From assembly GCA_964442455.1 (NCBI GenBank), contig CAYTZB010000001.1, positions 85,910 through 149,909 of the forward strand: a DNA stretch of 64,000 nucleotides, given 5' to 3'. This DNA comes from an uncultured Gammaproteobacteria bacterium. Lineage in GTDB: Bacteria > Patescibacteriota > Microgenomatia > UBA8517 > JACQJR01. The notes below the pieces were generated by a model, which was not told the origin of the DNA, did not search any database, and was given only the letters and a program-made list of their open reading frames with translations. Both the position numbers and the translations under genes were made by a program. Shown piece after piece: positions 10,269 through 62,684 of the stretch (its first letter is position 1; every line of letters begins with the position of its first letter).

Positions 10269-10646
10269 ATGTCAGCAGAACTGCCCCGCTGGACGTTTGA
10301 TGCTGCTGGGAGACCCCAAGACTTAATTCATAATGGAAAAATTGTGCTTCAAGACGGAAGACCAGTATTTGCGGAGAATAATTGTATTACTTTCGAGGAA
10401 GGCAAAAGTGGTGCACTTTTAGTAATCCGTGAACCAGAGAGTTCCGTATCATCATCTCTTTACATATTACGGCCAGAAGTAGGTAACTTTAGACTTATTC
10501 AAAATAGTATTGAGAGGAGGTTAAGTCTCGTGCCTTTGAGCGGGCAAATCGATGGAAACGGAAGGTCATTCACAATTCCCGACATGAGTTCAGTTTTGAG
10601 ACAAATAAGACTTCGTTTAGAAAAGCTTCCAAGAACCTCGCAATAA
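10269..10646 (+). CDS. Hypothetical protein (orphan, 125 aa)
   Basis: ATG-initiated ORF in an AT-rich insert between ftsI and murE. No recognisable motif. Confidence 0.45.
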   Translation: MSAELPRWTFDAAGRPQDLIHNGKIVLQDGRPVFAENNCITFEEGKSGALLVIREPESSVSSSLYILRPEVGNFRLIQNSIERRLSLVPLSGQIDGNGRSFTIPDMSSVLRQIRLRLEKLPRTSQ

Positions 10647-10733
10647 CTTCTTTTGAACTTAATTGTGGTATAATTCTTTGTTAAATCGTATGAATTGTTA
10701 AACAATTCTTAGCCTTGAATTTTTGAAACTTAG

Positions 10734-10818
10734 ATGTGTAGGCACCTTCGAGGTGTACGCAGGTATGGTACTATTACCACACTACAGAATATGGCAGTTG
10801 TTTAGTAATCTAATGATT
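10734..10818 (+). repeat. Copy A of a duplicated intergenic module (41-nt identical core 10743-10783, two hairpins, 23-codon micro-ORF)
   Basis: CACCTTCGAGGTGTACGCAGGTATGGTACTATTACCACACT is identical to 11741-11781. TATGG(C/T)AGTTGT and CTAATGAT are also shared downstream. Confidence 0.8.
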
Positions 10819-10842
10819 TAAATCACTGGATCAGTATGTTGG

Positions 10843-10870
10843 TTGACAAACGGATTACATTTGCTATAGT
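10843..10870 (+). promoter_or_regulatory. Promoter of the 272-aa orphan ORF
   Basis: TTGACA (10843-10848), a 16-nt spacer, then TG-n-TATAGT (10865-10870), followed by TAAGCTAAATTTATG. The architecture matches 11844-11871. Confidence 0.6.
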
Positions 10871-10882
10871 TAAGCTAAATTT

Positions 10883-11701
10883 ATGGCAGCTTCAATTGCT
10901 GAACGATTGGGGGTGACTTTAGAGCGTTTAGGTAAGGGGTTACAAGAAAGAGCAAGACCAAAAGAATCAACTTCTCCGGAACTTCTTCGTGATAAAGCAT
11001 TAGAATTATGGAGATTGACTGCTCCTGGACGCAAAGCTGATCCAAGCACCTCTGCTATTTCTTATTTCGTTTTCTCCTCTTCAGAAGGAGTTACTGCAGA
11101 CACTCAGGAAAAACAACTATTTGATGATTTATTAAAACCATATTGGCATGTCCATGATTATGATGGTTTTATGGTTATACTTTCAGTAAATCCGGATAAA
11201 CTTCCTAGTGTTTCATTTAAACTCTCCATTTTAGCTCCAGCTCCACCACAATTACCCTTTGAAGGTAAGTCTGCTGTTTTAGCATTTAGAGAATTTCCTC
11301 CAGATAGGAGTCGAAGGAGAGACTATCCTTATAATTTGCTTATTCAAGGAGAAAATAGAAATTTTTATTCTGATATATTGGATCAAGAAGTTACCGGTTT
11401 TGATCCTACTCAAGGATTACAATGGCAACAATTAGAAAAATACTCTGTTGATTATCAACCAAGAGGTGATATTGAATGGAGAAAAAAATTCACAAGCGAT
11501 GTTCTTGATCTCTTAATCGATATTATTAAAAAAATAGGATACGATGAAGTTGCTCAGGCTAGGATGGATCAATTTTGGAGGAGAAGTAGCATGATTCGGG
11601 GACGGTGGCTTGGTGAAGTTGAAAGTGAAAATCGGGAAGTAGATTATCGCCGACATTTTAATAATACTTCCTTGTCCCGCCGTAACAGGTTTAGTGTTTA
11701 A
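10883..11701 (+). CDS. Hypothetical protein (orphan, 272 aa)
   Basis: ATG-initiated ORF with its own promoter. A spot-counted 60-nt line (11161-11220) is about 30% G+C. No family recognised. Confidence 0.55.
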   Translation: MAASIAERLGVTLERLGKGLQERARPKESTSPELLRDKALELWRLTAPGRKADPSTSAISYFVFSSSEGVTADTQEKQLFDDLLKPYWHVHDYDGFMVILSVNPDKLPSVSFKLSILAPAPPQLPFEGKSAVLAFREFPPDRSRRRDYPYNLLIQGENRNFYSDILDQEVTGFDPTQGLQWQQLEKYSVDYQPRGDIEWRKKFTSDVLDLLIDIIKKIGYDEVAQARMDQFWRRSSMIRGRWLGEVESENREVDYRRHFNNTSLSRRNRFSV

Positions 11702-11728: not shown

Positions 11729-11816
11729 ATGGTGCAGACACACCTTCGAGGTGTACGCAGGTATGGTACTATTACCACACTCGGTGTATGGTAGTTGTAC
11801 AACGACTCTAATGATA
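11729..11816 (+). repeat. Copy B of the duplicated intergenic module (core 11741-11781, 21-codon micro-ORF preceded by GAGG)
   Basis: Same 41-nt core as copy A and the same downstream conserved blocks. Confidence 0.8.
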
Positions 11817-11843
11817 TGTATTATTAGAGCGATACCTTTTTTA

Positions 11844-11871
11844 TTGACAATTGAATCCTCTCTGATATAGT
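11844..11871 (+). promoter_or_regulatory. Promoter of the 183-aa orphan ORF
   Basis: TTGACA (11844-11849), a 16-nt spacer, then TG-n-TATAGT (11866-11871), followed by TAAGCTGAATTTAT. Confidence 0.6.
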
Positions 11872-11893
11872 TAAGCTGAATTTATAAGCTATT

Positions 11894-12445
11894 ATGACTG
11901 AATTAAGTCGCACCGACGGATTAGGAGAACCAGGTGAGCATGAAGCGTTTGAAGAATTAGATCCTCACAGAATTGCCCAACTTTTTGGAACAACAGCGAA
12001 ATTAACTTATTATGAAATTCGTTATGAGCTTGAAACAAATAAAGAAATTAAGAGAATTCCTGTGTGGGTGATTGATATTATAGAAAGGTCAAAATTAAGA
12101 CTTGTACAGCTATTCGTTGCACCAGAGATAAGACAAGTAGGTGTGGTTTCTAGTTTGCTTTTCAGCTCAAATTTACCACCCAACGTTGAGCCTGATCGGT
12201 ACGGTGAGACAAACCATACAGCCCGACTTGAGGGTGTGCAACAAGTTGAAGTTCGAAGATATCCTTTTTCCTCCCCATATACCAACGTAAGTTTTATTAT
12301 AGAAGACGAAAAAACAAAGTCAGTGCTACAAGTTGACTCTCGAGCAACATTCAGATTTGACTTTATGCAGAAAGAAGAATTAGGTAAGTATGCAATAGGT
12401 TTAGAAGAGATAAGGAACTTTTTCCGACGCGTTTCTCATTTTTGA
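11894..12445 (+). CDS. Hypothetical protein (orphan, 183 aa)
   Basis: ATG-initiated ORF. No recognisable motif. Confidence 0.55.
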   Translation: MTELSRTDGLGEPGEHEAFEELDPHRIAQLFGTTAKLTYYEIRYELETNKEIKRIPVWVIDIIERSKLRLVQLFVAPEIRQVGVVSSLLFSSNLPPNVEPDRYGETNHTARLEGVQQVEVRRYPFSSPYTNVSFIIEDEKTKSVLQVDSRATFRFDFMQKEELGKYAIGLEEIRNFFRRVSHF

Positions 12446-12455
12446 ACCTAAATCG

Positions 12456-12464
12456 TGGTATAAT
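12456..12464 (+). promoter_or_regulatory. Extended -10 promoter (TGgTATAAT) 7 nt upstream of the murE ATG (leaderless-type)
   Basis: TG at 12456-12457, TATAAT at 12459-12464, ATG at 12472. Confidence 0.5.
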
Positions 12465-12471
12465 TTACATA

Positions 12472-13818
12472 ATGGATGTGGTGAAGACGGTATTTGGGAA
12501 GAGTCGTTGGTATGGGCCGATCAGAAACTTCCAACACTTCGTAGAAGCAGTCTTCGCAGTTATTAAAAATGGATATCCTGCGCGAGATTTAACGGTTATT
12601 GGTGTGACAGGAACAGACGGAAAGACAACAACGTCGCACATTATCTCATCAATTCTTCAAGAAGCAGGAATTAAAACTGCGCTTATCTCAAGCGTCGGTG
12701 CATTTATTGGTGATGAGGAGGTCGATACAGGCTTCCATGTAACGACTCCTGATCCAAAATTACTTCAACCACTTCTCGTAAAGATTAAAGAGAAAGGAAT
12801 AACCCATGTTGTTATAGAAGCAACATCTCATGGACTTGACCAACACAGACTTCTTGGATGTAATTTTAAAGTGGGAGTTTTGACAAATATTACTCATGAA
12901 CATTTAGATTACCATCAGACGTTTGAAAGATATAGAGACGCTAAAGTAAAGTTGTTTCGCGGTGTTAAAACTGCTGTTTTAAATAGAGACGATGACTCAT
13001 TTTCCTACATAAAATCAAAAACAAATCCTGGTACTCGTGTCATTGCTTACAGCGTAAAACAAAATGCTACGTTATGGGCAGATAAAGTTTCATTTAATTG
13101 GAAGGGTATGGAATTTCGTGTGAGAGAAGGAAGATCAAGTATTACGCTTACAACAAAACTTATTGGTGAATATAATGTTTCAAATATACTCGCTGCTGTT
13201 GGAGTCGCGCGCGGAATTGGAATTTCATGGGAAGCGATTAAGGAAGGGGTCGAAAGGTTTGGAGGAATTCCAGGAAGGATGGAAAGAGTTGATGAAGGAC
13301 AAACGTTTGCCACCTTTATTGATTTTGCACATACACCAGCGGCTCTTGAGAGCGTATTGACACTTCTTAAGAAATTAAAAACTCGAGATAGTAAACTCAT
13401 CGTTGTATTTGGAGCAGCAGGAGAACGGGATGTTAGCAAGAGGGCTTTGATGGGTGAAATTGCCGCCCGTTTGGCTGATTTTACCGTGTTGACTGCCGAG
13501 GATCCGCGTACCGAGAATCTTAACAGGATTATTGATGATATTACACGGGGGATAAGGCAAAATGCTAAAGTGTGGGATGGTGTTGTGGATTGGAGAAAAG
13601 AAGGAAGCTGGTGTATTCGAGTTCCTGAGCGGGGTGAAGCGATTGCATTTGCCGCTCAAAAGTTGGCGAAAGGTGGGGATATTTTGGTGATTTGCGGAAA
13701 AGGCCATGAGAAATCAATGGCATTTGATCACACCGAATACCCATGGTCAGACCAGGAAGCAGCTAGGGTAGCGCTCAAAGGGAAAATTAAAAGAGTAAAA
13801 AGAGGACAATTAACCTAA
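12472..13818 (+). CDS. murE: UDP-N-acetylmuramoyl-L-alanyl-D-glutamate--2,6-diaminopimelate (or L-lysine) ligase MurE
   Basis: Mur ligase P-loop VIGVTGTDGKTTT, central domain TNITHEHLDYH, and the C-terminal motif DFAHTP. Confidence 0.9.
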   Translation: MDVVKTVFGKSRWYGPIRNFQHFVEAVFAVIKNGYPARDLTVIGVTGTDGKTTTSHIISSILQEAGIKTALISSVGAFIGDEEVDTGFHVTTPDPKLLQPLLVKIKEKGITHVVIEATSHGLDQHRLLGCNFKVGVLTNITHEHLDYHQTFERYRDAKVKLFRGVKTAVLNRDDDSFSYIKSKTNPGTRVIAYSVKQNATLWADKVSFNWKGMEFRVREGRSSITLTTKLIGEYNVSNILAAVGVARGIGISWEAIKEGVERFGGIPGRMERVDEGQTFATFIDFAHTPAALESVLTLLKKLKTRDSKLIVVFGAAGERDVSKRALMGEIAARLADFTVLTAEDPRTENLNRIIDDITRGIRQNAKVWDGVVDWRKEGSWCIRVPERGEAIAFAAQKLAKGGDILVICGKGHEKSMAFDHTEYPWSDQEAARVALKGKIKRVKRGQLT

Positions 13819-13922
13819 TTGACCTAATTATTCTAATTTCTAAAGAATGTCTAATGACAATTTTAAGAATTTCATATTTGGGATTTCTTTAGGTTAATTA
13901 GAAATTAGTAATTAGAAATTTA
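13809..13922. repeat. Imperfect long palindrome built from phased CTAATT / AATTAG units (element E1)
   Basis: Left arm: TAACCTAATTGACCTAATTATTCTAATTTCTAAAGAA. Right arm: TTCTTTAGGTTAATTAGAAATTAGTAATTAGAAATT. It fills the murE-murC spacer and is homologous to 36451-36590. Confidence 0.7.
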
Positions 13923-13929
13923 AGTTTTT

Positions 13930-15354
13930 ATGGATATAAAAACTTTGAAACATATCCATTTCACCGGCATTAAGGGTGTCGGTATGACAGCGCTTGTCTT
14001 ATGTGCACAGGATTTGGGGATAAAGGTAACCGGTTCTGATGTTGCCGAGGTATTTGTGACGGATGAGACACTAGAAAAGCGTGGGATAAGATGGAATGTG
14101 GGATTTGGTGAAAAGAATTTAGACCCGAGGCCTGATTTAGTTATTACCACCGGTGCTCATGGTGGATTACGCAATCCTGAGGTAGTGGCAGCACAAAAAA
14201 TGGGTATCCGAGTGTTAACACACGCCCAGGCGCTGTATGAATTTACGAAGGGGAAAGAAGTTATCGCGGTATGCGGAGTAGGTGGTAAATCAACGACCTG
14301 CGCAATGATTGCAACGATTTTTGATGAAGCAGGACTTCATCCGTCGTTTGCTATAGGCGTGGGGGACATTCCATCACTTGGTGCTCCGGGAAGATACGAT
14401 AAGAAGGGGAACGTGTTTATTGTTGAGGCGGACGAATATGCAATTTCTCCGGGGGTTGATAACCGGCCGCGGTTTAGTCTACTTTCTCCGCGAGTCATTG
14501 TTGTTACTAATATTGAGCATGACCATCCTGACATTTATAAAACTTTAGAGGATACGAAAAGAGCGTTTCGAGAATTTTTTGAAAAATTACCCAGCGATGG
14601 TTTGCTTGTTGCAAATGGAAACAGTGAGAATGTCCGCACGATAACTAAAAATCTCAAAGTAAGAGTTATAATGTACGATATTGAAAATTTAGAACTTTCT
14701 ATTCCTGGTAAGTTTAATCAGGCAAATGCGACTGCAGCTTCTGCAGTTGCAAAATTTTATAACAGCATTCAAGAATACTCCGCAATTTATTGCGGAGATG
14801 AATTGAACGCTGATATGTCATCCTCCTTTAGAGGGAAACCCAGCTCGTTAGAGCGGGGAGGATGTCATAAAATCCCAGAAGAAATAATTAAAAGAGGACT
14901 CCAAAATTTTAAAGGTGTTAGACGTCGGTTTGAAAAAATGGGTGAAATAAATGGAGTATTGTTTTATGATGATTACGCTCATACCCCAAATGAAATAAGG
15001 GCTACACTAGGAGCCGCTCGTGAATGGTTTAATAACCAACGCATAGTTGCAGTTTTTCAACCTCATACCTATTCTCGAACAAAAGCGTTACTTAGCGAAT
15101 TCGCGAAGAGTTTTAGTGATTCGGACATAGTTGGAGTTATGGATATTTATGCTTCCGCTCGGGAGAATGATACTTTAGGTATGTCGGGAGAGCTACTTGC
15201 AAAAGAAATTTCTCGATACCACAAAAATGTTGCCTATACGGGTAATCATGAACGAACTATTGAGTGGATTAAAAAAAATAGTAAAAGCGGTGATATAGTT
15301 TTGACTTTAGGGGCAGGCGATATTTTTTTATTGCACAGGATAATTAATTCATAA
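13930..15354 (+). CDS. murC: UDP-N-acetylmuramate--L-alanine ligase MurC (carries an in-frame ~38-codon repeat-element insertion)
   Basis: HFTGIKGVGMTAL, GVGGKSTT, NIEHDHPD, FKGVRRRFE and YDDYAHTP motifs are present. The segment NSIQEYSAIYCGDELNADMSSSFRGKPSSLERGGCHK is encoded by the repeat at 14757-14870. Confidence 0.9.
   Translation: MDIKTLKHIHFTGIKGVGMTALVLCAQDLGIKVTGSDVAEVFVTDETLEKRGIRWNVGFGEKNLDPRPDLVITTGAHGGLRNPEVVAAQKMGIRVLTHAQALYEFTKGKEVIAVCGVGGKSTTCAMIATIFDEAGLHPSFAIGVGDIPSLGAPGRYDKKGNVFIVEADEYAISPGVDNRPRFSLLSPRVIVVTNIEHDHPDIYKTLEDTKRAFREFFEKLPSDGLLVANGNSENVRTITKNLKVRVIMYDIENLELSIPGKFNQANATAASAVAKFYNSIQEYSAIYCGDELNADMSSSFRGKPSSLERGGCHKIPEEIIKRGLQNFKGVRRRFEKMGEINGVLFYDDYAHTPNEIRATLGAAREWFNNQRIVAVFQPHTYSRTKALLSEFAKSFSDSDIVGVMDIYASARENDTLGMSGELLAKEISRYHKNVAYTGNHERTIEWIKKNSKSGDIVLTLGAGDIFLLHRIINS
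14757..14870 (+). mobile_element. MITE-like hairpin element, long form, copy 1 (inside murC, in frame)
   Basis: 114 bp, homologous to 58021-58133 and to 25471-25538. Termini TTATAACA...TGTCATAA form inverted repeats. There are two internal 8-bp hairpins. Confidence 0.7.
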
Positions 15355-21087: not shown

Positions 21088-22455
21088 ATGGATTTTTCAA
21101 ACAAAAATGTCGCCATCATTGGGGCAGGTTTAGAGGGTAAAGATGTCCTGCGATTTTTGAGTAAGAAGGGCGCAAAAATTACGGTTTTTGATCAAAAAGA
21201 AAAAGAAGAACTGGACTTATCTGACGTAGAAAAAATTCCCGCTCAATTTATAACCGGCCCTGGCTATCTTGATAGAGGACTACGCAACTTCGACTATATT
21301 GTTCGTTCTCCAGGAGTAAGACCTGATTTACCCCAAATAGTAGATGCGGAAAAGGGTGGTACAGAAATAACAAGCGCCATCAACATATTCTTTTCTTTTA
21401 GTCCTGCTTCTGCTATTGGTGTGACCGGAACAAAAGGAAAGGGGACAACGGCAACGCTCGTGGCAAAGTGTCTAGAATCAAACCTGCCTGCGCAGACAGG
21501 TGGCAAGACCGTGTACTTGGCTGGTAATATTGGAACTCCTTATCTTGAACTTTTAGAAAAATTAAAATCTAGCGATACTGTTGTTCTTGAACTTTCTTCT
21601 TTTCAACTCCTCGATATTAAAAAATCTCCTCATATTGCAGTGGTATTAAACATTACGACCGATCACCTTGATTGGCACAAAGACAGAGAGGAGTACGTCC
21701 GAGCAAAAGAGAATATTGTGAGGTTTCAAACGCAAAAAGATTACGCGGTGTTAATCAAAGATTACGAAACGCCTGCCAGTTTTGCTCAAAAAACAAAAGC
21801 TCAAGTTTGCTGGGCGAGTGCAAAAGAGCAGGTGAGGGGAGTGTATGTATTGCATGGAAAAATTGTCGTGAATATTGATAAGAAAGAAGAGGTAGGTTCT
21901 GTAGATAAACTGTTGCTTCGGGGGCGACATAATTGGGAAAATGTGACAGCGGCTGCATGTGCTTCGTACTTGGCTGGGGCAACAGTGGAAGGGATAAGAA
22001 AAGGAGTCTTTTCATTTAAAGGACTCCCCCATCGTCTGGAGTTGGTTGGAACCTATAATGGAATTACTTTCTATAACGACTCGTTTGCTACAAGTCCTGC
22101 TCCAGTTTTAGCAGCTGTTGCCAGCTTTACCGAGCCGGTAATTTTAATTTTGGGTGGCTCAAGTAAAGGGCTCTCATACGACGAATTTGGGAAAGAATTG
22201 GCGAATAAAAAACAAGTAAAAGCGGTTCTTATTATTGGAGAAGTAGGCCCAGAAATACAAAAAGCGCTGGAGGTTGGTGGATTTACTGGAAAAATAGTGG
22301 TCGGTGGAAAGAATATGGTTGAGATTGTACAGAATGCGATTACCCTTGCCCAGACTGGTGACGTGGTACTCCTCTCCCCAGCTGCTGCGTCGTTTGATAT
22401 GTTCCGAGATTACAAAGACAGAGGGGAACAGTTTAAGGAAGTCGTAACCCAATAA
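21088..22455 (+). CDS. murD: UDP-N-acetylmuramoylalanine--D-glutamate ligase MurD
   Basis: N-terminal Rossmann NVAIIGAGLEGK, P-loop GVTGTKGKGTT, and NITTDHLDWH. ATG 21088 is preferred over the ORF-track start 21025. Confidence 0.9.
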   Translation: MDFSNKNVAIIGAGLEGKDVLRFLSKKGAKITVFDQKEKEELDLSDVEKIPAQFITGPGYLDRGLRNFDYIVRSPGVRPDLPQIVDAEKGGTEITSAINIFFSFSPASAIGVTGTKGKGTTATLVAKCLESNLPAQTGGKTVYLAGNIGTPYLELLEKLKSSDTVVLELSSFQLLDIKKSPHIAVVLNITTDHLDWHKDREEYVRAKENIVRFQTQKDYAVLIKDYETPASFAQKTKAQVCWASAKEQVRGVYVLHGKIVVNIDKKEEVGSVDKLLLRGRHNWENVTAAACASYLAGATVEGIRKGVFSFKGLPHRLELVGTYNGITFYNDSFATSPAPVLAAVASFTEPVILILGGSSKGLSYDEFGKELANKKQVKAVLIIGEVGPEIQKALEVGGFTGKIVVGGKNMVEIVQNAITLAQTGDVVLLSPAAASFDMFRDYKDRGEQFKEVVTQ

Positions 22456-25346: not shown

Positions 25347-25470
25347 ATTCGAAGCACGAAGCTCGAAACAATATCTAAATTCAAATACCCAATGTTCAAA
25401 AAGGTTTAGAATTTTGAATTTTACTTATTTGAAATTTGTTTAGGATTTCGAATTTAGAATTTCGGATTTA
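25347..25470. repeat. Imperfect long palindrome of TTCGAA / TCTAAATT-type phased units (element E3)
   Basis: Left arm: AAATTCGAAGCACGAAGCTCGAAA...TCTAAATTCAAATA. Right arm: TATTTGAAATTTGTTTAGGATTTCGAATTTAGAATTTCGGATTT. Confidence 0.6.
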
Positions 25471-25538
25471 TTATAACAGCATTCAAGAAAACTCCCGACT
25501 TTTAGTCGGGTGATGAATTGAACGCTGATATGTCATAA
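25471..25538 (+). mobile_element. MITE-like hairpin element, short form, copy 2 (abuts the ftsA start codon)
   Basis: 68 bp, TTATAACAGC...GATATGTCATAA. It equals the long form minus the segment between two ATGTCAT direct repeats. Confidence 0.7.
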
Positions 25539-36436: not shown

Positions 36437-36450
36437 AGGCCACAAGTGAA

Positions 36451-36590
36451 ATTAACCTAATTAACCTAATTGCTCTAATTGATCTAAATTTTGAAGATTT
36501 GTAGTTTAAAAATTGGGATTTATTTAGAAATTAGAATAATTAGAAATAAGCAGAGCTTGTTTCTCGCAAGCTCGAAATTAGAAATTTTTA
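36451..36590. repeat. Imperfect long palindrome of CTAATT / AATTAG phased units (element E4, homolog of E1) plus an internal 7-bp hairpin
   Basis: Left arm: ATTAACCTAATTAACCTAATTGCTCTAATTGATCTAAATT. Right arm: TTTAGAAATTAGAATAATTAGAAAT...GAAATTAGAAATT. The hairpin is GAGCTTG-TTTCTCG-CAAGCTC. Confidence 0.65.
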
Positions 36591-36592
36591 AA

Positions 36593-37720
36593 ATGGCTCT
36601 TGTTAAACCAGATACCACGCGGTTGGCAAAAATTCGAGTAATTGGGGTTGGTGGCGGTGGGGGGAACGCAATTAACTCCATGATCTCCCAAGATAAGATT
36701 TCCGGAGTTGAGTTCATTGCCGTTAATACAGATGCACAAGTCCTTCTCTCAAACCTCGCGTCCACAAAAGTTCAAGTTGGTGAAAAATTGACGCGCGGGT
36801 TGGGTGTTGGGGGAAATCATGAGCTTGGGAAACAAGCAGCGGAGGAATCAAGAGAAAAAATTAAAGAACTGCTTCTTGACTCTGATATGGTATTTATTAC
36901 TGCAGGTATGGGTGGAGGGACTGGAACTGGGGCTGCACCGATTATTGCCGAGGTCGCGCGTGAGGTGGGGGCGTTGACGATTGCTATTGTTACCAAACCT
37001 TTTGCCTTTGAAGGTGCACGGCGCGCAGTAGTAGGAGAAGAGGGAATTGAAGCGCTTAAAGGAAAGGTTGATACGCTCATTATCATTCCCAATCAGCGGT
37101 TGATGGATGTCATTGACCGGAAGGTGACGCTACTTGATGCGTTCCGCCTGGCCGACTCGGTGCTCTCGCAAGGTGTACAAGGAATTTCTGAAATTATCAC
37201 CCAACCGGGACTTATTAACGTTGACTTTGCGGATGTAAAAGCAATTATGACCCAAGCAGGCTCAGCGCTTCTTGGCATTGGTACGGGAGTTGGTGAAGCG
37301 CGGGCACAAATGGCAGCACGGGCAGCAATTTCCTCTCCTCTTCTTGACTTATCAATCGAGGGTGCAAAGGGAGTGTTGTTTAATATCTCGGGTGGCCCGG
37401 ACTTGACTATGGCGGAGGTTGATGAGGCAGCGCGAATTATCGCCGAGCATTCCGATGCAGACGCAAACATTATTTTTGGTGCATCAATTGACCAACGGTT
37501 GTCCGATCAAGTACGTATTACAGTTATTGCGACCGGTTTTGATGAGGCGCGGGCACGACTTGCGCAAATAACCCAAACCGCAGTCAAACCTCAACCAACC
37601 CTTGAGTCGACAGAAGAGACTCGTGGGGAAAACGAGGAGGAAGAAAAGGCAGAAGAACCCAAGGATGATGAGTTTGGAGAACGCTTCGAAATACCAGCGT
37701 TTCTAAGACAGGGCCGCTAG
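36593..37720 (+). CDS. ftsZ: Cell division GTPase FtsZ
   Basis: GVGGGGGNAIN, tubulin signature GGGTGTGAAPIIA, NTDAQ, and the C-terminal conserved peptide FEIPAFLRQGR. ATG 36593 is preferred; the ORF-track TTG 36491 extension runs through the palindromic repeat. Confidence 0.92.
   Translation: MALVKPDTTRLAKIRVIGVGGGGGNAINSMISQDKISGVEFIAVNTDAQVLLSNLASTKVQVGEKLTRGLGVGGNHELGKQAAEESREKIKELLLDSDMVFITAGMGGGTGTGAAPIIAEVAREVGALTIAIVTKPFAFEGARRAVVGEEGIEALKGKVDTLIIIPNQRLMDVIDRKVTLLDAFRLADSVLSQGVQGISEIITQPGLINVDFADVKAIMTQAGSALLGIGTGVGEARAQMAARAAISSPLLDLSIEGAKGVLFNISGGPDLTMAEVDEAARIIAEHSDADANIIFGASIDQRLSDQVRITVIATGFDEARARLAQITQTAVKPQPTLESTEETRGENEEEEKAEEPKDDEFGERFEIPAFLRQGR
37669..37707 (+). repeat. Direct repeat copy 1 (last 39 nt of the ftsZ body before its final 13 nt)
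   Basis: TGAGTTTGGAGAACGCTTCGAAATACCAGCGTTTCTAAG is identical to 40512-40550. Confidence 0.9.
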
Positions 37721-37781
37721 CTTCTAGGATAAAACCTATAATATTTCTTCTACTCTTTAGTTGATATGGTATACTATCGGC

Positions 37782-40514
37782 ATGATTGCAACAACCGAAA
37801 GAGCTATACCAATAGGATTGACTGGCGATATCTCAAAGGATGGAATTCTTTCTCCAGGAACACAAATAGAGCTTGATCGTCTCCAAACTAATGCGGCTGA
37901 TGCTTGCATGGAATATCTAGATAGAATGGCACCAGATGCACCATTTCCTCTAGTTTTTATGGCAACTGGCGTCGGTAAGGGAAAAATTATTCACGAACTG
38001 ATTAAAAGGCAAAAAGCTCGAAAACAAGACTCGAAGATTTTGTTAGTTACAGGTACAAAAATTGTTTTAGTTGATCAGACTGATCAAGCTTTAACTGCTT
38101 ATCAGCAAGAACAAAATGATTTTGATATGGATGAGGATCTTGAACTGGACCAGATGGATTTTGAAAAAGAAGCGTTTGGAGAATACACATTTGATAAGTA
38201 TGGTAATCCGGATGTGGATGTTCAACTGGCAACAATTCAAAGAATTCAAAGGCAGCATAAAGAGGGGAAACTTAATGCGAATGATTTCGATCTACTAATA
38301 GTAGATGAAGTACATAATGTAGGAACCCAGAATAGGTTTAATGCAATTGATAACTTTCAAAGGGTTGTTGGTTTTACTGCTACTCCATATCGCTACACTG
38401 GCCCAATGAAAACACCACAAAGTTATGGATTTGAAATAATTACTTCGCTGTCCCTTCCCGAAGCACAAGAAAGGAAAATTCTTCCGCCTCTTTATGCACT
38501 GCAGATTAATACATCAGAATTACTAAAAGACGAACAAATACCTACCACGAGAACTGGAAAGATCGATTATTCGAAACTCGAGAAAGTTCTCAAGGCACAT
38601 CCGGAATTAAGGGAATTCATTGCGAATAGAGTTGCACCAATTATCAATTTTGAAGGGAGAAGTTATAAAACTGTTGTAACTGTTAACTTTGTGTGGGAAG
38701 CCCTGGAACTTGCCTGGTTATTTAGGGATAAAGGAATTAAGGTTGGTTTAGCAGTTAATCAATATGCCGCAAAGAATATTGATACCAAAGAAATACCAGC
38801 ATTGGACACGATTAGGAGATATAAACTGCCGGAAGGCGATCCAGAAAGCCTCCAGGTTTTAATTTCTCCTTATGTTATTTCGGAAGGTTTTGATGCTCCG
38901 GCAACAGAGATTTTAGTTTGGGCGTCTCCAACTGATTCATATCTGCGATACACGCAATATACTGGACGGCTGGCCAGAAGACATTTTGGTAAAGCTTATG
39001 GACTAGTTGTTGATTGTTTATACCAAACAAGCCAGTATGGTTGGACCTACAACTTTGCAATGTGGATGAAGGGATATGTACAAGAGTTAGAACCTGGACT
39101 TTTATATCTTGGCCCGATGTCAGAAATCAAAGATGTTGAAGTACTTAGACGCATACACGAGATTTCGGATAATATCCATATTCGTGAATTACAAAGGGAA
39201 GGAATACTACCTATTCAAGAAAACGACTTGCCGCTTTCACAAAATTGGATTCGACCTCTTTTCCAGGGAGATTGGCTTAGATTAACTTCTTTAATCGATG
39301 AGATTAAAGAAGAGTATAGAATCACTGGTGAGGAGGTATTTAATCAACTATTCACAACCAGGCTTAGTGGTAATCAACTTGTGCTCGTATGTACAAATAG
39401 AGATATTTTTATTCAACGGCTAATAGACAAAGGTGCTAAACCAAAGGTTGAAAAACCACGAGAGGGAGAGATTCCTTTGACTCAGATTAATCTACCCAAA
39501 CTCTTTGTTGGTAATTTTGAAGATACTTTGAGACCTATGCTTAATTCAATAATGGCGCGTATTAAAAATGAAGATCCAGAGGAATACCAGCGACTCTTTG
39601 CCAAACGAATGCAGGGTAGGGAAATCTATGTTTGCACAAATAAGGATAGACTTATTCAACTTATGGTTGAAGCTGGCGCAAAACTCAGGCCAGGGACTAA
39701 GGTAGCAAAAGAGAAAATGCAAACTAGCGATTTTGCTCTTACAGCAGATAATCTCGGAGAAACTTTTATTACTGGAAGAACAAAGAAGATAAGAGAAGTA
39801 ATAAGGAAAATAAAAGAAAGTTTGCCAGAAGGGGACTCTTTATTTACTTTTAGAGAATACAAGTATGCCGATGTTGAGGTAGTAACTGATTTCGATAGAT
39901 TTGTGCAATTAATGCTACAAACTGGAGTCAAACTCAGACCAAAAAATTTTATTCCAATTCAACCAAATGATATACAATTAAGTAGGGATTTATTAAAAAC
40001 ATTTTTAGGGCAATGGCGTGAAATTTCTACAACAGCGCAGCGAGCTAAAGAAAGACTTGAAAGACAATTCCCCGATGACTGTGATACTCTTTTTGTAGTT
40101 AGGACAACGAGAGTCCAAAATAAACCTCTTTGGATTGATGTATGTACAGACAGGTCTAAATTTATAAAAGCAATGGTAGAGGAAGGAGCTCGATTGAGAG
40201 ATCAGGCAGATATTAACCTTCTACCTATTCAAGAAAATGATATTGTTTTGAGCTTTGAATCTTTCTATTCGATTTCTACTACAAACTGGAGTAAATTAAA
40301 AGTTGTAATTAGACGAATTAAAGATAGGATAAAAGAGGAAATGCCAGAGGAATTCGAAAAGTTATTTGTAAAAAGGAAAAACCGTCGGGGGAAAAGTGAG
40401 GTCTGTACAGATAGAGGTTTATTTATTAAGTGGCTTGAAGAAGAGGGTGTTAAGCTAAGGCAAATTCCGCTAGTTGTGCGACATAGAAGTAGTAACTCTA
40501 ATCGTAACTCTTGA
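37782..40514 (+). CDS. SF2 helicase (ResIII/DEAD-like N-terminal ATPase + helicase-C) with five tandem ~84-aa C-terminal repeats
   Basis: Motif I FMATGVGKGK, motif II LLIVDEVHNV, motif III GFTATP, motif VI QYTGRLARR. TGgTATACT lies 6 nt before ATG 37782. The repeats span nt ~39204-40465. Confidence 0.85.
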   Translation: MIATTERAIPIGLTGDISKDGILSPGTQIELDRLQTNAADACMEYLDRMAPDAPFPLVFMATGVGKGKIIHELIKRQKARKQDSKILLVTGTKIVLVDQTDQALTAYQQEQNDFDMDEDLELDQMDFEKEAFGEYTFDKYGNPDVDVQLATIQRIQRQHKEGKLNANDFDLLIVDEVHNVGTQNRFNAIDNFQRVVGFTATPYRYTGPMKTPQSYGFEIITSLSLPEAQERKILPPLYALQINTSELLKDEQIPTTRTGKIDYSKLEKVLKAHPELREFIANRVAPIINFEGRSYKTVVTVNFVWEALELAWLFRDKGIKVGLAVNQYAAKNIDTKEIPALDTIRRYKLPEGDPESLQVLISPYVISEGFDAPATEILVWASPTDSYLRYTQYTGRLARRHFGKAYGLVVDCLYQTSQYGWTYNFAMWMKGYVQELEPGLLYLGPMSEIKDVEVLRRIHEISDNIHIRELQREGILPIQENDLPLSQNWIRPLFQGDWLRLTSLIDEIKEEYRITGEEVFNQLFTTRLSGNQLVLVCTNRDIFIQRLIDKGAKPKVEKPREGEIPLTQINLPKLFVGNFEDTLRPMLNSIMARIKNEDPEEYQRLFAKRMQGREIYVCTNKDRLIQLMVEAGAKLRPGTKVAKEKMQTSDFALTADNLGETFITGRTKKIREVIRKIKESLPEGDSLFTFREYKYADVEVVTDFDRFVQLMLQTGVKLRPKNFIPIQPNDIQLSRDLLKTFLGQWREISTTAQRAKERLERQFPDDCDTLFVVRTTRVQNKPLWIDVCTDRSKFIKAMVEEGARLRDQADINLLPIQENDIVLSFESFYSISTTNWSKLKVVIRRIKDRIKEEMPEEFEKLFVKRKNRRGKSEVCTDRGLFIKWLEEEGVKLRQIPLVVRHRSSNSNRNS

Positions 40515-40563
40515 GTTTGGAGAACGCTTCGAAATACCAGCGTTTCTAAGGCAAGGAAGATGA
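40512..40563 (+). pseudogene. Orphan duplicate of the ftsZ 3' end (encodes EFGERFEIPAFLRQGR-stop)
   Basis: 39 nt are identical to 37669-37707. The next 13 nt differ from the ftsZ tail at 7 positions, yet both tails translate to RQGR-stop. It is not in frame with the helicase ORF. Confidence 0.8.
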
Positions 40564-58007: not shown

Positions 58008-58020
58008 AGCAGTGAGTTTA

Positions 58021-58133
58021 TTATAACAGCATTCAAGAAAACTCCCGACTTTCAGTCGGGAGATGAATTGAACGCTGATATGTCATCCTCCTTTAGAGGA
58101 AACCCCGCTTTTCAAAGCGGGGAGGATGTCATA
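58021..58133 (+). mobile_element. MITE-like hairpin element, long form, copy 3 (intergenic)
   Basis: TTATAACAGC...GGATGTCATA, with hairpins CTCCCGAC-TTTCA-GTCGGGAG and CCCCGCTT-TTCA-AAGCGGGG. Confidence 0.75.
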
Positions 58134-62593: not shown

Positions 62594-62684
62594 TATGTGA
62601 CTTTTCACCTCCTTCCTTGATATAGGCAGGCCTGCCTGCGCAGACAGGAGTTTGTGAGCAGTCAATAAAAGTTTAGCTGTTCTG

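What the first reader, a model, noticed from the sequence alone, without database searches (positions are those of the whole stretch)
10734..10882. Duplicated intergenic module: 41-nt identical core with two hairpins, then a matched promoter and 5' leader (copy A)
Two spacers, upstream of ORF272 and upstream of ORF183, share the same ordered blocks.
- A 41-nt perfectly identical core, CACCTTCGAGGTGTACGCAGGTATGGTACTATTACCACACT (10743-10783 = 11741-11781).
- TATGG(C/T)AGTTGT.
- CTAATGAT.
- TTGACA, a 16-nt spacer, then TG-n-TATAGT.
- TAAGCT(A/G)AATTTAT.
The core folds into two adjacent hairpins: (A)CACCT-TCG-AGGTG(T), and GTATGGTA-CTAT-TACCACAC (7 of 8 pairs). The downstream ORFs are unrelated to each other, so the unit that was duplicated is the non-coding element plus promoter, not a gene. 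It could be a cis-regulatory RNA, a small RNA driven by the TGgTATAAT at 10666-10674, a recombination site, or the end of a cassette-type mobile unit.
Basis: seen in the sequence. Interest (0 to 1): 0.6.

Follow-up and report, generated by a model that had tools for sequence, protein, structure and literature searches.

The report
Repeated promoter module flanking inserted gene
A ~145-base non-coding stretch, made of a 41-base double palindrome and a strong promoter, occurs twice, on either side of a gene inserted into the cell-wall gene cluster of an uncultured CPR bacterium; it looks like the duplicated control region left by gene insertion, not a new RNA gene.

Summary
A 41-nt exact repeat (10743-10783 = 11741-11781) is followed in both copies by the same ordered blocks and a near-consensus promoter, TTGACA-16-TGnTATAGT. 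There are only two copies in 64 kb, and independent assemblies confirm them. No Rfam family matches, and the hairpins are no more stable than shuffled sequence.

The organism is a Microgenomates (CPR) bacterium. In relatives, ftsI is followed by murE directly or after one small gene, so ORF272 and ORF183 are lineage-specific insertions. The module brackets ORF272. The whole 1.8-kb insert is bracketed by a second direct repeat, a duplicated murE promoter (10651-10675 = 12440-12465).

The first palindrome of the core, CACCT-TCG-AGGTG, is a clade motif. It flanks a Y1 (IS200/REP-type) transposase gene next to an ORF272 homologue in another genome, and it forms an inverted doublet in a third.

Best reading (confidence 0.45): an insertion-generated duplication of a promoter region. 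The promoter half drives near-leaderless mRNAs, and the core is a protein-recognised DNA site. Rival readings are an att-like crossover site, an independently inserted REP-like element, an RNA element and neutral gene conversion. Interest is moderate.

The parts
10269..10646 (+). ORF125, a conserved small gene that follows ftsI in this subclade and forms the left border of the insertion hotspot
   Evidence: 38.5% identical (E = 2e-15) to the 98-aa ORF at the same position in L013. No Pfam or NCBIfam match.
10651..10675 (+). Outer direct repeat, left copy: an orphaned duplicate of the murE promoter (TTTTGAACTTAATTGTGGTATAATT).
   Evidence: 23 of 26 positions match 12440-12465, and 0 of 5000 shuffles reach the score. 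It is the only match above the null when the murE promoter is scanned across the whole window: score 35 against a null maximum of 24.
10743..10783 (+). Core A, the 41-nt exact repeat. Palindrome 1 is (G)CACCT-TCG-AGGTG(T) at 10742-10756. Palindrome 2 is GTATGGTA-CTAT-TACCACAC at 10763-10782.
   Evidence: The 13-nt palindrome 1 is the reverse complement of the centre of the 21-nt palindromes that flank a Y1_Tnp gene in L017-L020. It also resembles the inverted doublet in L014.
10790..10817 (+). Conserved post-core blocks of copy A: TATGGCAGTTGT (10790-10801) and CTAATGAT (10810-10817). The first repeats the TATGGYA half-site of palindrome 2.
   Evidence: Alignment A1 and the sequence itself.
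10843..10870 (+). Promoter A: TTGACA, a 16-nt spacer, then TGc-TATAGT
   Evidence: 11 of 12 consensus matches with the TG extension. It is one of the two best sites in 10-14 kb. The TTGACAA is shared with the promoters of ORF272 homologues in L021 and L017.
10871..10882 (+). Conserved initial transcribed region of copy A (TAAGCTAAATTT). The inferred start is near 10877, which gives a 5' UTR of about 6 nt.
   Evidence: The start site is inferred from the usual spacing after the -10 and is not measured.
10883..11701 (+). ORF272, the gene bracketed by the two module copies. It belongs to an uncharacterised CPR protein family.
   Evidence: 22 other cluster representatives are found by exhaustive phmmer, at 28-43% identity. 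Two members carry an added C-terminal Trans_reg_C domain. The AlphaFold model has pLDDT 82.9 but no convincing structural relative. The gene is absent from the ftsI-murE junction of relatives.
11741..11781 (+). Core B, identical to core A, beginning 39 nt after the ORF272 stop codon
11787..11845 (+). Post-core blocks of copy B: TATGGTAGTTGT (11787-11798) and CTAATGAT (11808-11815). In this copy the CTAATGAT block is the 5' arm of a terminator-like hairpin, CTCTAATGAT-ATGT-ATTATTAGAG (11806-11829), followed by a T-run (11835-11845).
   Evidence: plus the predicted structure (148-nt fold, z = -2.07). The terminator scan did not flag it because the stem has few G-C pairs.
11844..11871 (+). Promoter B: TTGACA, a 16-nt spacer, then TGa-TATAGT
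   Evidence: 11 of 12 matches with TG.
11872..11893 (+). Initial transcribed region of copy B (TAAGCTGAATTTATAAGCTATT). The ATG of copy A is ATA here, and the ORF starts 11 nt later.
   Evidence: The -10 and leader probably have a counterpart upstream of the ORF183 homologue in the 85% relative (local alignment, shuffle p = 0.02).
11894..12445 (+). ORF183, the second lineage-specific gene. Its stop codon lies inside the right copy of the outer repeat.
   Evidence: Its only homologue is P0126 (75% identity), directly upstream of murE in the 85% relative. DNA similarity begins only at window position 12044, so the first 50 codons and the module are not alignable.
12440..12465 (+). Outer direct repeat, right copy: the working murE promoter (TTTTGAACCTAAATCGTGGTATAATT), 6 nt before the murE ATG at 12472
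   Evidence: It is orthologous to the murE promoters of L011/L016, L012 and L014.

Best explanation
The module is a duplicated promoter region created when genes were inserted at the ftsI-murE junction of the dcw cluster.

Shown:
- The ancestral arrangement was ftsI, a small ORF125-like gene, the murE promoter, then murE.
- In this lineage about 1.8 kb carrying ORF272 and ORF183 lies between two copies of the murE promoter (the outer direct repeat).
- Inside that segment, ORF272 lies between two copies of the ~145-nt module (the inner direct repeat).
- Each module copy ends in a near-consensus sigma-70-type promoter placed 12 or 23 nt before the next start codon.
- Genes in this clade normally start 5-8 nt after a TGnTATAAT box with no Shine-Dalgarno sequence.

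Inferred:
- The promoter half drives near-leaderless mRNAs for ORF272 and ORF183.
- The pattern of conserved blocks separated by diverged spacers reflects selection on working cis elements after an old duplication.
- The 41-nt core, at about -135 to -95 from the inferred start sites, is a DNA site read by a sequence-specific protein. It consists of two adjacent palindromes plus a third TATGGYA half-site.
- The most likely reader is a clade-conserved factor that recognises CACCT-YCG-AGGTG, the same palindrome that flanks a Y1 (HUH) transposase gene beside the ORF272 homologue in another Microgenomates genome.
- It is open whether that protein regulates the promoters or once recombined the segment.
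For: - Repeat and blocks.
- Promoters: both score 11 of 12 with the TG extension and are the two best sites in the 4 kb scanned. Leaderless gene starts are the norm in the window and in four relatives.
- Insertion hotspot: L014/L015 have ftsI followed directly by murE, L013 has one 98-aa ORF (a homologue of ORF125) and L012 has an unrelated 185-aa ORF. ORF272 has no counterpart at this junction in any relative. ORF183 has one only in the 85% relative.
- Outer repeat: 10651-10675 against 12440-12465, 23 of 26 positions, 0 of 5000 shuffles, and the only match above the null in a whole-window scan.
- Parallel case: in L021 the ORF272 homologue (39% identical) is bracketed by a 46-nt direct repeat of 76% identity. 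One copy lies upstream of its TTGACAAA promoter and the other upstream of the next gene's promoter. The spacing is 1051 nt, against 998 nt here.
- Clade motif: CACCT-N3-AGGTG occurs twice here, twice around Y1_Tnp in L017-L020 and twice inverted in L014. My arithmetic expects about 0.17 occurrences in the 176 kb held.
- Against an RNA reading: no Rfam hit and no excess fold stability.
Against: - A 41-nt run with no change at all, including the loops and the 6-nt linker, is more than a typical operator needs. It would fit a recombination core or recent gene conversion better.
- A site centred about 115 nt upstream of an already consensus promoter is an unusual place for a regulator.
- No candidate binding protein, transposase or recombinase is encoded in the 64 kb.
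- The ORF272 model shows no DNA-binding fold.
- Only the 13-nt palindrome is shared with the Y1-flanking hairpins. The flanks are not similar.
- With two identical copies, per-base constraint cannot be measured.
- The rest of the genome could not be searched, so the true copy number is unknown.
Confidence: 0.45

Rival explanations
1. The core is an att-like crossover site of a promoter-carrying gene cassette. A circular unit made of core, promoter A, ORF272 and a 39-nt tail recombined with a resident core upstream of promoter B and ORF183. This left identical cores on both sides of the incoming gene, as attL and attR or neighbouring integron attC sites do.
For: - The identity has sharp edges: 41/41, against 15/40 on the left and an immediate drop on the right.
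- The left flanks are unrelated, as expected for attL and attR.
- ORF272 is lineage-specific and belongs to a family with homologues elsewhere.
- The L021 homologue is also bracketed by a direct repeat.
- Palindrome 2 has the inverted half-sites with a short central spacer that are typical of recombinase sites.
Against: - The right flanks share about 66% identity over roughly 100 nt, including the promoter. A simple att model does not predict this and needs the extra assumption that all cassettes share a 5' module.
- There are two cores for two genes, not n+1.
- No integrase, recombinase or Y1 gene is present in 64 kb.
- The core is absent from viral contigs, genome representatives and JGI metagenomes.
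- No attC-type single long imperfect hairpin is present.
Confidence: 0.2
2. The core is a REP-like or IS200/IS605-end-like hairpin element, a substrate of a Y1 HUH transposase acting on single-stranded DNA. It was copied into both spacers independently of the older promoter duplication.
For: - The 13-nt palindrome 1 is identical, as a reverse complement, to the centre of the two identical 21-nt palindromes that flank a 223-aa Y1_Tnp gene in L017-L020. Both have the same strand orientation, as IS200 left- and right-end hairpins do. The first begins 26 nt after the stop of the ORF272 homologue.
- L014 carries an inverted REPIN-like doublet (ssDNA fold z = -4.7).
- Copy A has GTAG 1 nt from the hairpin foot.
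- The window is about five-fold enriched in perfect palindromes, some of them inside genes.
- The 41-nt size lies within the 21-65 nt range given for REPs (PMC6006769).
Against: - There are only two copies in 64 kb. Both are at homologous positions of an already duplicated module, which independent insertion does not explain.
- Copy B lacks the GT[AG]G tag.
- The window has no Y1 gene.
- Flanks of the hairpin are unrelated between the genomes.
- The core's own ssDNA fold is only marginally better than shuffles.
- By its motifs (NHFH, YIHLNP) the L017 protein resembles TnpAY1 subclass 2.1. That subclass is reported to lack REPs, and its published terminal-repeat consensus, GGGG[AT][CG]A[CG], does not match.
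Confidence: 0.1
3. The core acts as RNA. It would be a processing, stability or protein-binding element in the 3' UTRs of ORF125 and ORF272 and in read-through leaders of ORF272 and ORF183, or part of a small RNA started at the orphaned promoter at 10666-10674.
For: - Both cores lie downstream of a gene on the same strand, 96 and 39 nt after the stop codons. Core A lies about 60 nt downstream of an intact TGGTATAAT box.
- Two hairpins can form.
- Perfect conservation of loops and linker would suit an RNA recognised along its whole length.
Against: - No Rfam match even at E <= 10.
- Folding is no better than shuffled sequence (z = -0.47 and -0.15).
- No terminator follows core A.
- Copy B has no promoter of its own upstream.
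- The same palindrome occurs in the opposite orientation relative to the genes in L017, and in both orientations in L014. That argues for recognition as DNA.
Confidence: 0.1
4. The core has no function of its own. It is a patch of an old duplicated spacer that was recently homogenised by gene conversion, or it simply has not yet mutated.
For: - Identity is all-or-none, with no graded conservation.
- A 41-bp stretch of perfect identity is near the minimal length for homologous exchange (general knowledge).
Against: - Conversion tracts normally need and include flanking homology, yet the left flank is unrelated and identity drops at once on the right.
- The chance of a 41-nt perfect run at the surrounding identity is about 3e-8.
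- The patch coincides exactly with two palindromes, one of which is a clade-wide motif.
Confidence: 0.08
5. The core encodes a short peptide. ATG-initiated ORFs cover it in the same frame in both copies: 10734-10805 (MCRHLRGVRRYGTITTLQNMAVV) and 11729-11794 (MVQTHLRGVRRYGTITTLGVW).
For: - Both copies have an in-frame ATG 9 or 12 nt upstream of the core.
- Copy B has a GAGG 7 nt before its ATG.
Against: - The core lacks stop codons in all three forward frames, so short ORFs are expected anyway.
- There is no synonymous change across 13 codons while the flanks have diverged.
- The conserved TATGGYAGTTGT block is read in different frames in the two copies.
- Copy A has no ribosome-binding signal.
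Confidence: 0.03

Closest known systems
REP/REPIN elements with their RAYT (TnpA-REP), and the subterminal hairpins of IS200/IS605 elements (Y1 HUH transposase substrates)
   Same: - It is a short extragenic palindrome of the right size.
- The identical 13-nt palindrome flanks a Y1_Tnp gene, in the same strand orientation at both ends, in another Microgenomates genome, and it forms an inverted doublet in a third.
- The two copies here are in direct orientation around a gene, as left- and right-end hairpins are.
   Different: - There are only two copies in 64 kb.
- No Y1 gene is nearby.
- The GT[AG]G tag is present in one copy only.
- About 100 nt of shared promoter sequence follows both copies, which transposon ends do not have.
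- The second palindrome and the rest of the core are not shared with the Y1-linked hairpins.
Shared operator-plus-promoter regions of co-regulated neighbouring genes (local regulon sites created by duplication of a control region)
   Same: - There are conserved blocks (-35, extended -10, start region, upstream dyads) separated by diverged spacers.
- The dyad-symmetric sequences are of operator size.
- Both copies sit upstream of promoters.
   Different: - The dyads lie unusually far upstream (about -135 to -95) of promoters that are already near consensus.
- All 41 nt are invariant.
- No cognate regulator has been identified.
Integron gene cassettes and attC arrays (including arrays without a nearby integrase)
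   Same: - Unrelated genes of unknown function lie in tandem, separated by a repeated structured non-coding element, at a fixed chromosomal spot.
- The layout is what recombination between a circular cassette and a resident site would give.
   Different: - Each unit carries its own strong promoter.
- The repeat sits 5' of the genes.
- There is no single long imperfect attC hairpin, and no integron integrase in the window.
- There are only two units.
Phage 'morons' (a promoter, ORF and terminator unit inserted between two genes of an operon)
   Same: - Single genes with their own strong promoter are inserted between the genes of a conserved cluster.
- Copy B has a terminator-like hairpin just before the next promoter.
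   Different: - The context is chromosomal housekeeping genes, not a prophage.
- There are no PHROG or viral-contig matches.
- The flanking direct repeats are not a feature of morons.

Membership tests
REP / REPIN-RAYT | A short (21-65 nt) extragenic palindrome able to form a hairpin | tested here: met
   The 41-nt intergenic core has two stem-loops. The size range is taken from PMC6006769.
REP / REPIN-RAYT | A conserved GT[AG]G guide tetranucleotide at the 5' foot of the hairpin | tested here: not met
   Copy A has GTAG at 10738-10741, 1 nt from the foot. Copy B has GCAGACA instead. The L017 left-end copy also lacks it.
REP / REPIN-RAYT | Many copies dispersed through the genome, often as inverted pairs | tested here: inconclusive
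   There are only 2 copies in 64 kb, in direct orientation and in one locus. The rest of the genome could not be reached: the source genome is absent from the genome, metagenome and viral collections. An inverted pair of the 13-nt palindrome exists in L014.
REP / REPIN-RAYT | A RAYT/Y1 gene in the same genome, itself flanked by the repeat | not testable with these tools
   The window has no Y1_Tnp by tblastn or Pfam. In a different genome (L017-L020) a Y1_Tnp gene is flanked by the same 13-nt palindrome.
IS200/IS605 element or derived PATE | Similar subterminal hairpins of about 20-25 nt at both ends, on the same strand | tested here: met
   Two identical cores lie in direct orientation 998 nt apart around ORF272. 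The criterion is taken from PMC6006769.
IS200/IS605 element or derived PATE | The ends share little beyond the hairpin; the element carries tnpA, or is short and non-coding | tested here: not met
   Both cores are followed by about 100 nt of shared sequence that includes a promoter. The cargo is an 819-nt gene of an unrelated family.
Integron cassette / attC | An integron integrase nearby, or an array of attC sites each forming one long imperfect hairpin with R''/L'' and L'/R' boxes | tested here: not met
   No integrase or recombinase domain is found in about 45 ORFs of the window. The core folds as two short separate hairpins, not one long one. No attC model was available to run.
Sigma-70-type promoter with extended -10 | TTGACA and TATAAT-like hexamers 16-18 nt apart, with TG one base upstream of the -10 | tested here: met
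   Both copies score 11 of 12 with TG and a 16-nt spacer.
Sigma-70-type promoter with extended -10 | A mapped transcription start | not testable with these tools
   No transcript data are available. The starts near 10877 and 11878 are inferred from spacing.
Known structured RNA family (Rfam) | A match to a covariance model at or near its gathering score | tested here: not met
   There are no matches in the region at gathering threshold. At E <= 10 there are only two chance-level hits.
Transcription-factor operator | Dyad symmetry of operator size upstream of the regulated promoters, and a cognate DNA-binding protein | tested here: inconclusive
   Dyads of 6-3-6 and 8-4-8 are present in both copies. 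No regulator has been identified. ORF272 has no DNA-binding fold, although two family members carry a fused Trans_reg_C domain.

The most novel reading that the evidence does not exclude
Microgenomates (CPR) bacteria possess a previously undescribed gene-cassette insertion system. In it, promoter-carrying single-gene units are placed at the promoters of housekeeping genes through a double-hairpin site that contains CACCT-YCG-AGGTG. The site is recognised by a Y1 (HUH) enzyme of the TnpAY1 subclass 2.1 type, and each insertion duplicates the local promoter so that the displaced leaderless gene stays expressed.
Probability: 0.1. Interest if true: 0.8.

Novelty: new variant of a known kind. Interest (0 to 1): 0.4.

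Why it matters
CPR bacteria have small genomes full of lineage-specific genes, and how these genes arrive and become expressed is poorly understood. This locus gives a concrete picture. Genes were inserted into the most conserved gene cluster of the cell, and each insertion is bracketed by a duplicated promoter segment. That makes sense in an organism whose genes are leaderless, because such a gene loses expression if it is separated from its promoter. If the 41-nt double palindrome proves to be the site at which a Y1-type enzyme or another factor acts, it would connect the poorly understood 'domesticated' Y1 transposases to gene insertion or promoter control in CPR genomes. If not, the locus is still a clean natural example of promoter duplication by insertion. 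It also supplies candidate strong promoters for an uncultured lineage.

Tried and rejected
- Known RNA family: Rfam at gathering threshold over the whole window and at E <= 10 over the locus found nothing.
- Unusually stable structure: RNA and DNA folds are within the range of shuffles.
- Whole-unit tandem duplication: blastn and tblastx of ORF272 against ORF183 plus the 5' part of murE, and of the two upstream flanks, found nothing. BLASTP between the ORFs also found nothing.
- Dispersed repeat: no further copy in the window. The core is absent from genome representatives, viral contigs and JGI metagenomes.
- Extended homology between the core and the Y1-linked hairpin flanks: not significant in either orientation.
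- A 'TTTTGA..CT.A' word 5' of each core as further murE-promoter copies: the pattern gave 3 hits, all in the locus, but I had derived it from those same sequences. An unbiased scan with the murE promoter did not recover them, so I dropped the idea.
- ORF272 as an orphan: a word-index search found only the protein itself, but exhaustive HMMER found a family.
- Phage or defence origin: no PHROGs or PADLOC hits and no homologues in viral contigs.
- Loci related to the ORF272 family in JGI metagenomes: none.
- DGR template/variable repeat: considered and rejected by reading the sequence. The differences between copies are not adenine-specific, and the window has no reverse transcriptase.
- MraZ boxes: no resemblance to the sequence upstream of mraZ (by eye only).
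- Small peptide: ORFs exist but are explained by the absence of stop codons in all three frames.
- The AFDB library was not available for the fold search.
Full report
**1. The observation**

The 41-mer CACCTTCGAGGTGTACGCAGGTATGGTACTATTACCACACT is present exactly at 10743-10783 and 11741-11781. With up to three mismatches it has no other match on either strand of the window, and none of 100 shuffles gives any match.

- TATGGYAGTTGT
- (C)TCTAATGAT
- TTGACAA
- TGnTATAGTTAAGCTRAATTTAT

Identity is 41/41 in the core, 69/105 from the core to the end of the leader, and 15/40 just upstream. At 66% identity a perfect 41-nt run has a probability of about 3e-8. A profile of the two copies and short-word BLAST of each block find no third copy in 64 kb.

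The repeat is not an assembly artefact. Nine Logan contigs from several sequencing runs are 100% identical to the window. They end or begin at 10772, 10754, 11770 and 11752, exactly where a k=31 graph breaks at a 41-nt repeat. Two contigs run through one core each, with that core's own flanks.

**2. What the pieces are**

- *Promoters.* Both copies contain TTGACA, a 16-nt spacer and TGnTATAGT. That is 11 of 12 consensus positions plus the TG extension, and these are the two best promoter-like sites in 10-14 kb.
- *Palindromes.* The core holds two adjacent palindromes, (G/A)CACCT-TCG-AGGTGT and GTATGGTA-CTAT-TACCACAC. The block after the core repeats the TATGGYA half-site.
- *Folding.* Folding is unremarkable. 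As RNA, z = -0.47 and -0.15 for 66-nt segments. As single-stranded DNA, z = -1.5 and -2.3.
- *RNA families.* Rfam gives only four tRNAs in the window at gathering threshold. At E <= 10 the locus gives two chance-level hits.

**3. The setting**

The window is core chromosome. It carries mraZ, mraW, an ftsL-like gene, ftsI, three ORFs without Pfam or NCBIfam matches (125, 272 and 183 aa), then murE, murC and murB. Further on lie FtsZ, IleRS, FtsW, ParB and glycosyltransferases. There is no transposase, integrase or recombinase.

MurE homologues place the organism in the Candidatus Microgenomates / Patescibacteria group.

The ftsI-murE junction varies among relatives:
- L014/L015 (65% MurE identity): ftsI is followed by murE after 37 nt.
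- L013 (68%): one 98-aa ORF, homologous to ORF125 (38.5% identity, E = 2e-15).
- L012 (69%): an unrelated 185-aa ORF.

ORF272 has no counterpart at this junction in any relative. ORF183 has one homologue (75% identity), directly upstream of murE in the 85% relative. There, DNA similarity begins only at window position 12044, so the first 50 codons and the module are not alignable. The contig ends 101 nt upstream of that gene. A short stretch there does resemble the -10 and leader of module B (shuffle p = 0.02).

**4. Leaderless genes**

In the window and in four relatives, genes start 5-8 nt after a TGnTATAAT box with no Shine-Dalgarno sequence. Examples are murE in every genome and the DUF4012 gene.

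The module promoters differ from this pattern in two ways. They have a perfect -35, and they lie 12 nt (A) or 23 nt (B) from the ATG. The 'leader' is therefore about 6 or 16 nt, which I infer from the usual spacing.

**5. A second, outer repeat**

The 25 nt just after the ORF125 stop (10651-10675, TTTTGAACTTAATTGTGGTATAATT) match the working murE promoter (12440-12465) at 23 of 26 positions, and 0 of 5000 shuffles reach that score. When the murE promoter is scanned across the whole window, this is the only match above the null: score 35 against a null maximum of 24.

The murE promoter is orthologous across relatives. In L013 the ORF125 homologue is followed directly by it.

The architecture is nested:

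ORF125 | murE-promoter copy | core A + promoter A | ORF272 | core B + promoter B | ORF183 | murE promoter | murE

**6. ORF272 is a real gene of an uncharacterised family**

- A word-index search found only the protein itself. Exhaustive phmmer found 22 other cluster representatives at 28-43% identity.
- Two longer members add a C-terminal OmpR-type winged helix.
- One distant homologue (P0135) lies in an ordinary, tightly packed context without repeats. The family is not inherently mobile.

**7. Two informative homologue loci**

- *L021.* The P0128 gene (39% identical to ORF272) is bracketed by a 46-nt direct repeat of 76% identity. One copy lies upstream of its TTGACAAA promoter and the other upstream of the next gene's TGTTGTATAAT box. 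The spacing is 1051 nt, against 998 nt here. The repeat sequence is unrelated to the core, and its differences look codon-like.
- *L017-L020.* The P0127 gene (43% identical) is followed after 26 nt by the palindrome ATTCCACCTCGAAGGTGGAAT, then a TTGACA promoter, a 223-aa Y1_Tnp gene and an identical second palindrome.

The reverse complement of the L017 palindrome's centre is CACCTTCGAGGTG, which is palindrome 1 of the core. The same motif occurs as an inverted pair 34 nt apart inside the 5' coding part of the DUF4012 gene of L014. By my arithmetic about 0.17 occurrences of CACCT-N3-AGGTG are expected in the 176 kb held, and much of that sequence is redundant. Six unique occurrences are seen, always in pairs.

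Only the 13 nt are shared. The flanks show no significant similarity.

The L017 protein has NHFH and YIHLNP. These are the motifs listed for TnpAY1 subclass 2.1, a group reported to lack REPs and to have terminal repeats of a different consensus (PMC6006769).

**8. Interpretation**

The simplest account has three parts:
- Insertion of genes at this junction duplicated the local promoter region each time. The outer repeat shows this for murE, and the inner repeat shows it for the module.
- Both copies of the module then stayed under selection for their working parts. That gives conserved blocks in diverged spacers.
- The 41-nt double palindrome is the most constrained block, a DNA site read by a sequence-specific protein.

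The link of palindrome 1 to a Y1 transposase gene makes an enzyme or factor of that system the best candidate. A transcription factor is equally possible.

I give this reading a confidence of 0.45. The rivals are:

| Rival reading | Confidence | Main problem |
|---|---|---|
| True att-like crossover site of a cassette | 0.2 | The shared right flanks and the lack of any recombinase argue against it |
| Independently inserted REP-like element | 0.1 | Two copies at homologous positions argue against it |
| RNA element | 0.1 | No family match, no excess stability, and mixed orientations of the palindrome elsewhere |
| Neutral patch kept identical by gene conversion | 0.08 | The sharp edges and the coincidence with the palindromes argue against it |
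| Short peptide | 0.03 | |

**9. Limits**

- Only 64 kb of the genome could be read.
- The source genome and the core are absent from every collection searched.
- The closest relative's contig stops just short of the informative region.
- With two identical copies, neither covariation nor per-base constraint can be assessed.
- Promoter activity and start sites are inferred from consensus only.

Noticed in passing
window 14752-14869; also 58017-58133 and 25467-25536 (partial copy): A repeat of about 118 nt is inserted in frame inside murC. It adds 36 residues (NSIQEYSAIYCGDELNADMSSSFRGKPSSLERGGCHK) that three orthologues lack. Two full copies fold into two long hairpins with 4 compensatory pair changes. 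The intergenic copy gives a sub-threshold Rfam hit to HgcC (36 bits against a gathering score of 50, E = 5.7e-7). This resembles the in-frame palindromic elements of Rickettsia.
   Followed up: partly
window 21482-21501, 42713-42732, 62630-62649; also 42620-42639: The 20-nt palindrome ACCTGCCTGCGCAGRCAGGT occurs three times, each inside a different ORF (a Mur ligase, IleRS and a LysM protein). A further perfect palindrome, TGGTGTGGACTACCACACCA, lies in IleRS. The window has 15 perfect GC-containing hairpins with stems of at least 7 bp, against a mean of 3.0 in shuffles.
   Followed up: partly
window 37669-37713 and 40512-40556: A 45-nt direct repeat of 96% identity, with an internal imperfect hairpin, brackets the 917-aa ResIII/DEAD helicase-like ORF at 37761-40514, just after ftsZ. 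This is the same 'repeat on both sides of a gene' layout as at ORF272.
   Followed up: no
L014 606-652: An inverted pair, CACCTCCGAGGTG ... CACCTCGGAGGTG, lies inside the variable N-terminal coding part of the DUF4012 gene of the 65% relative. It reads in frame as ...STSEVGQAAVDVHLGGV.... Its ssDNA fold has z = -4.7.
   Followed up: partly
L016 1-20: The contig of the 85% relative begins with CCCCAAAACCCCAAAACCCC. This is the C4A4 repeat known from spirotrich ciliate telomeres, and it sits 80 nt upstream of a bacterial gene. It could be an assembly chimera or a low-complexity genomic stretch; it is unexplained.
   Followed up: no
window 981, 12472 and others; L011-L014 murE starts: Gene starts in this clade lie 5-8 nt after TGnTATAAT with no Shine-Dalgarno sequence. 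Leaderless mRNAs therefore appear to be the rule. Some genes internal to operons (mraW, the ftsL-like gene) do have GGAG-like motifs.
   Followed up: partly
L014 11339-11710 (and L015 5047-5418): In the 65% relative, a 123-aa bAvd / 23S_rRNA_IVP-type gene, a family linked to diversity-generating retroelements, is inserted between murE and murC. This is another sign that the dcw cluster of these organisms tolerates insertions.
   Followed up: no
window 10691-10707: The perfect palindrome GAATTGTT-A-AACAATTC lies between the orphaned murE promoter copy and core A. It has no counterpart in copy B.
   Followed up: no
window 10904-10951 (ORF272 residues 8-23) and L013 2487-2534: The N-terminus of ORF272 (RLGVTLERLGKGLQER) resembles the C-terminal part of the ORF125-family protein of L013 (RLRVTLEGISRGLEER): 62% identity over 16 residues, E = 0.016 in a very small search. 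It may be chance.
   Followed up: no
window 13808-13846 and 36450-36497: AT-rich tandem words (AATTAACCTAATT...) recur in the spacers upstream of murC and of ftsZ (family D3).
   Followed up: no
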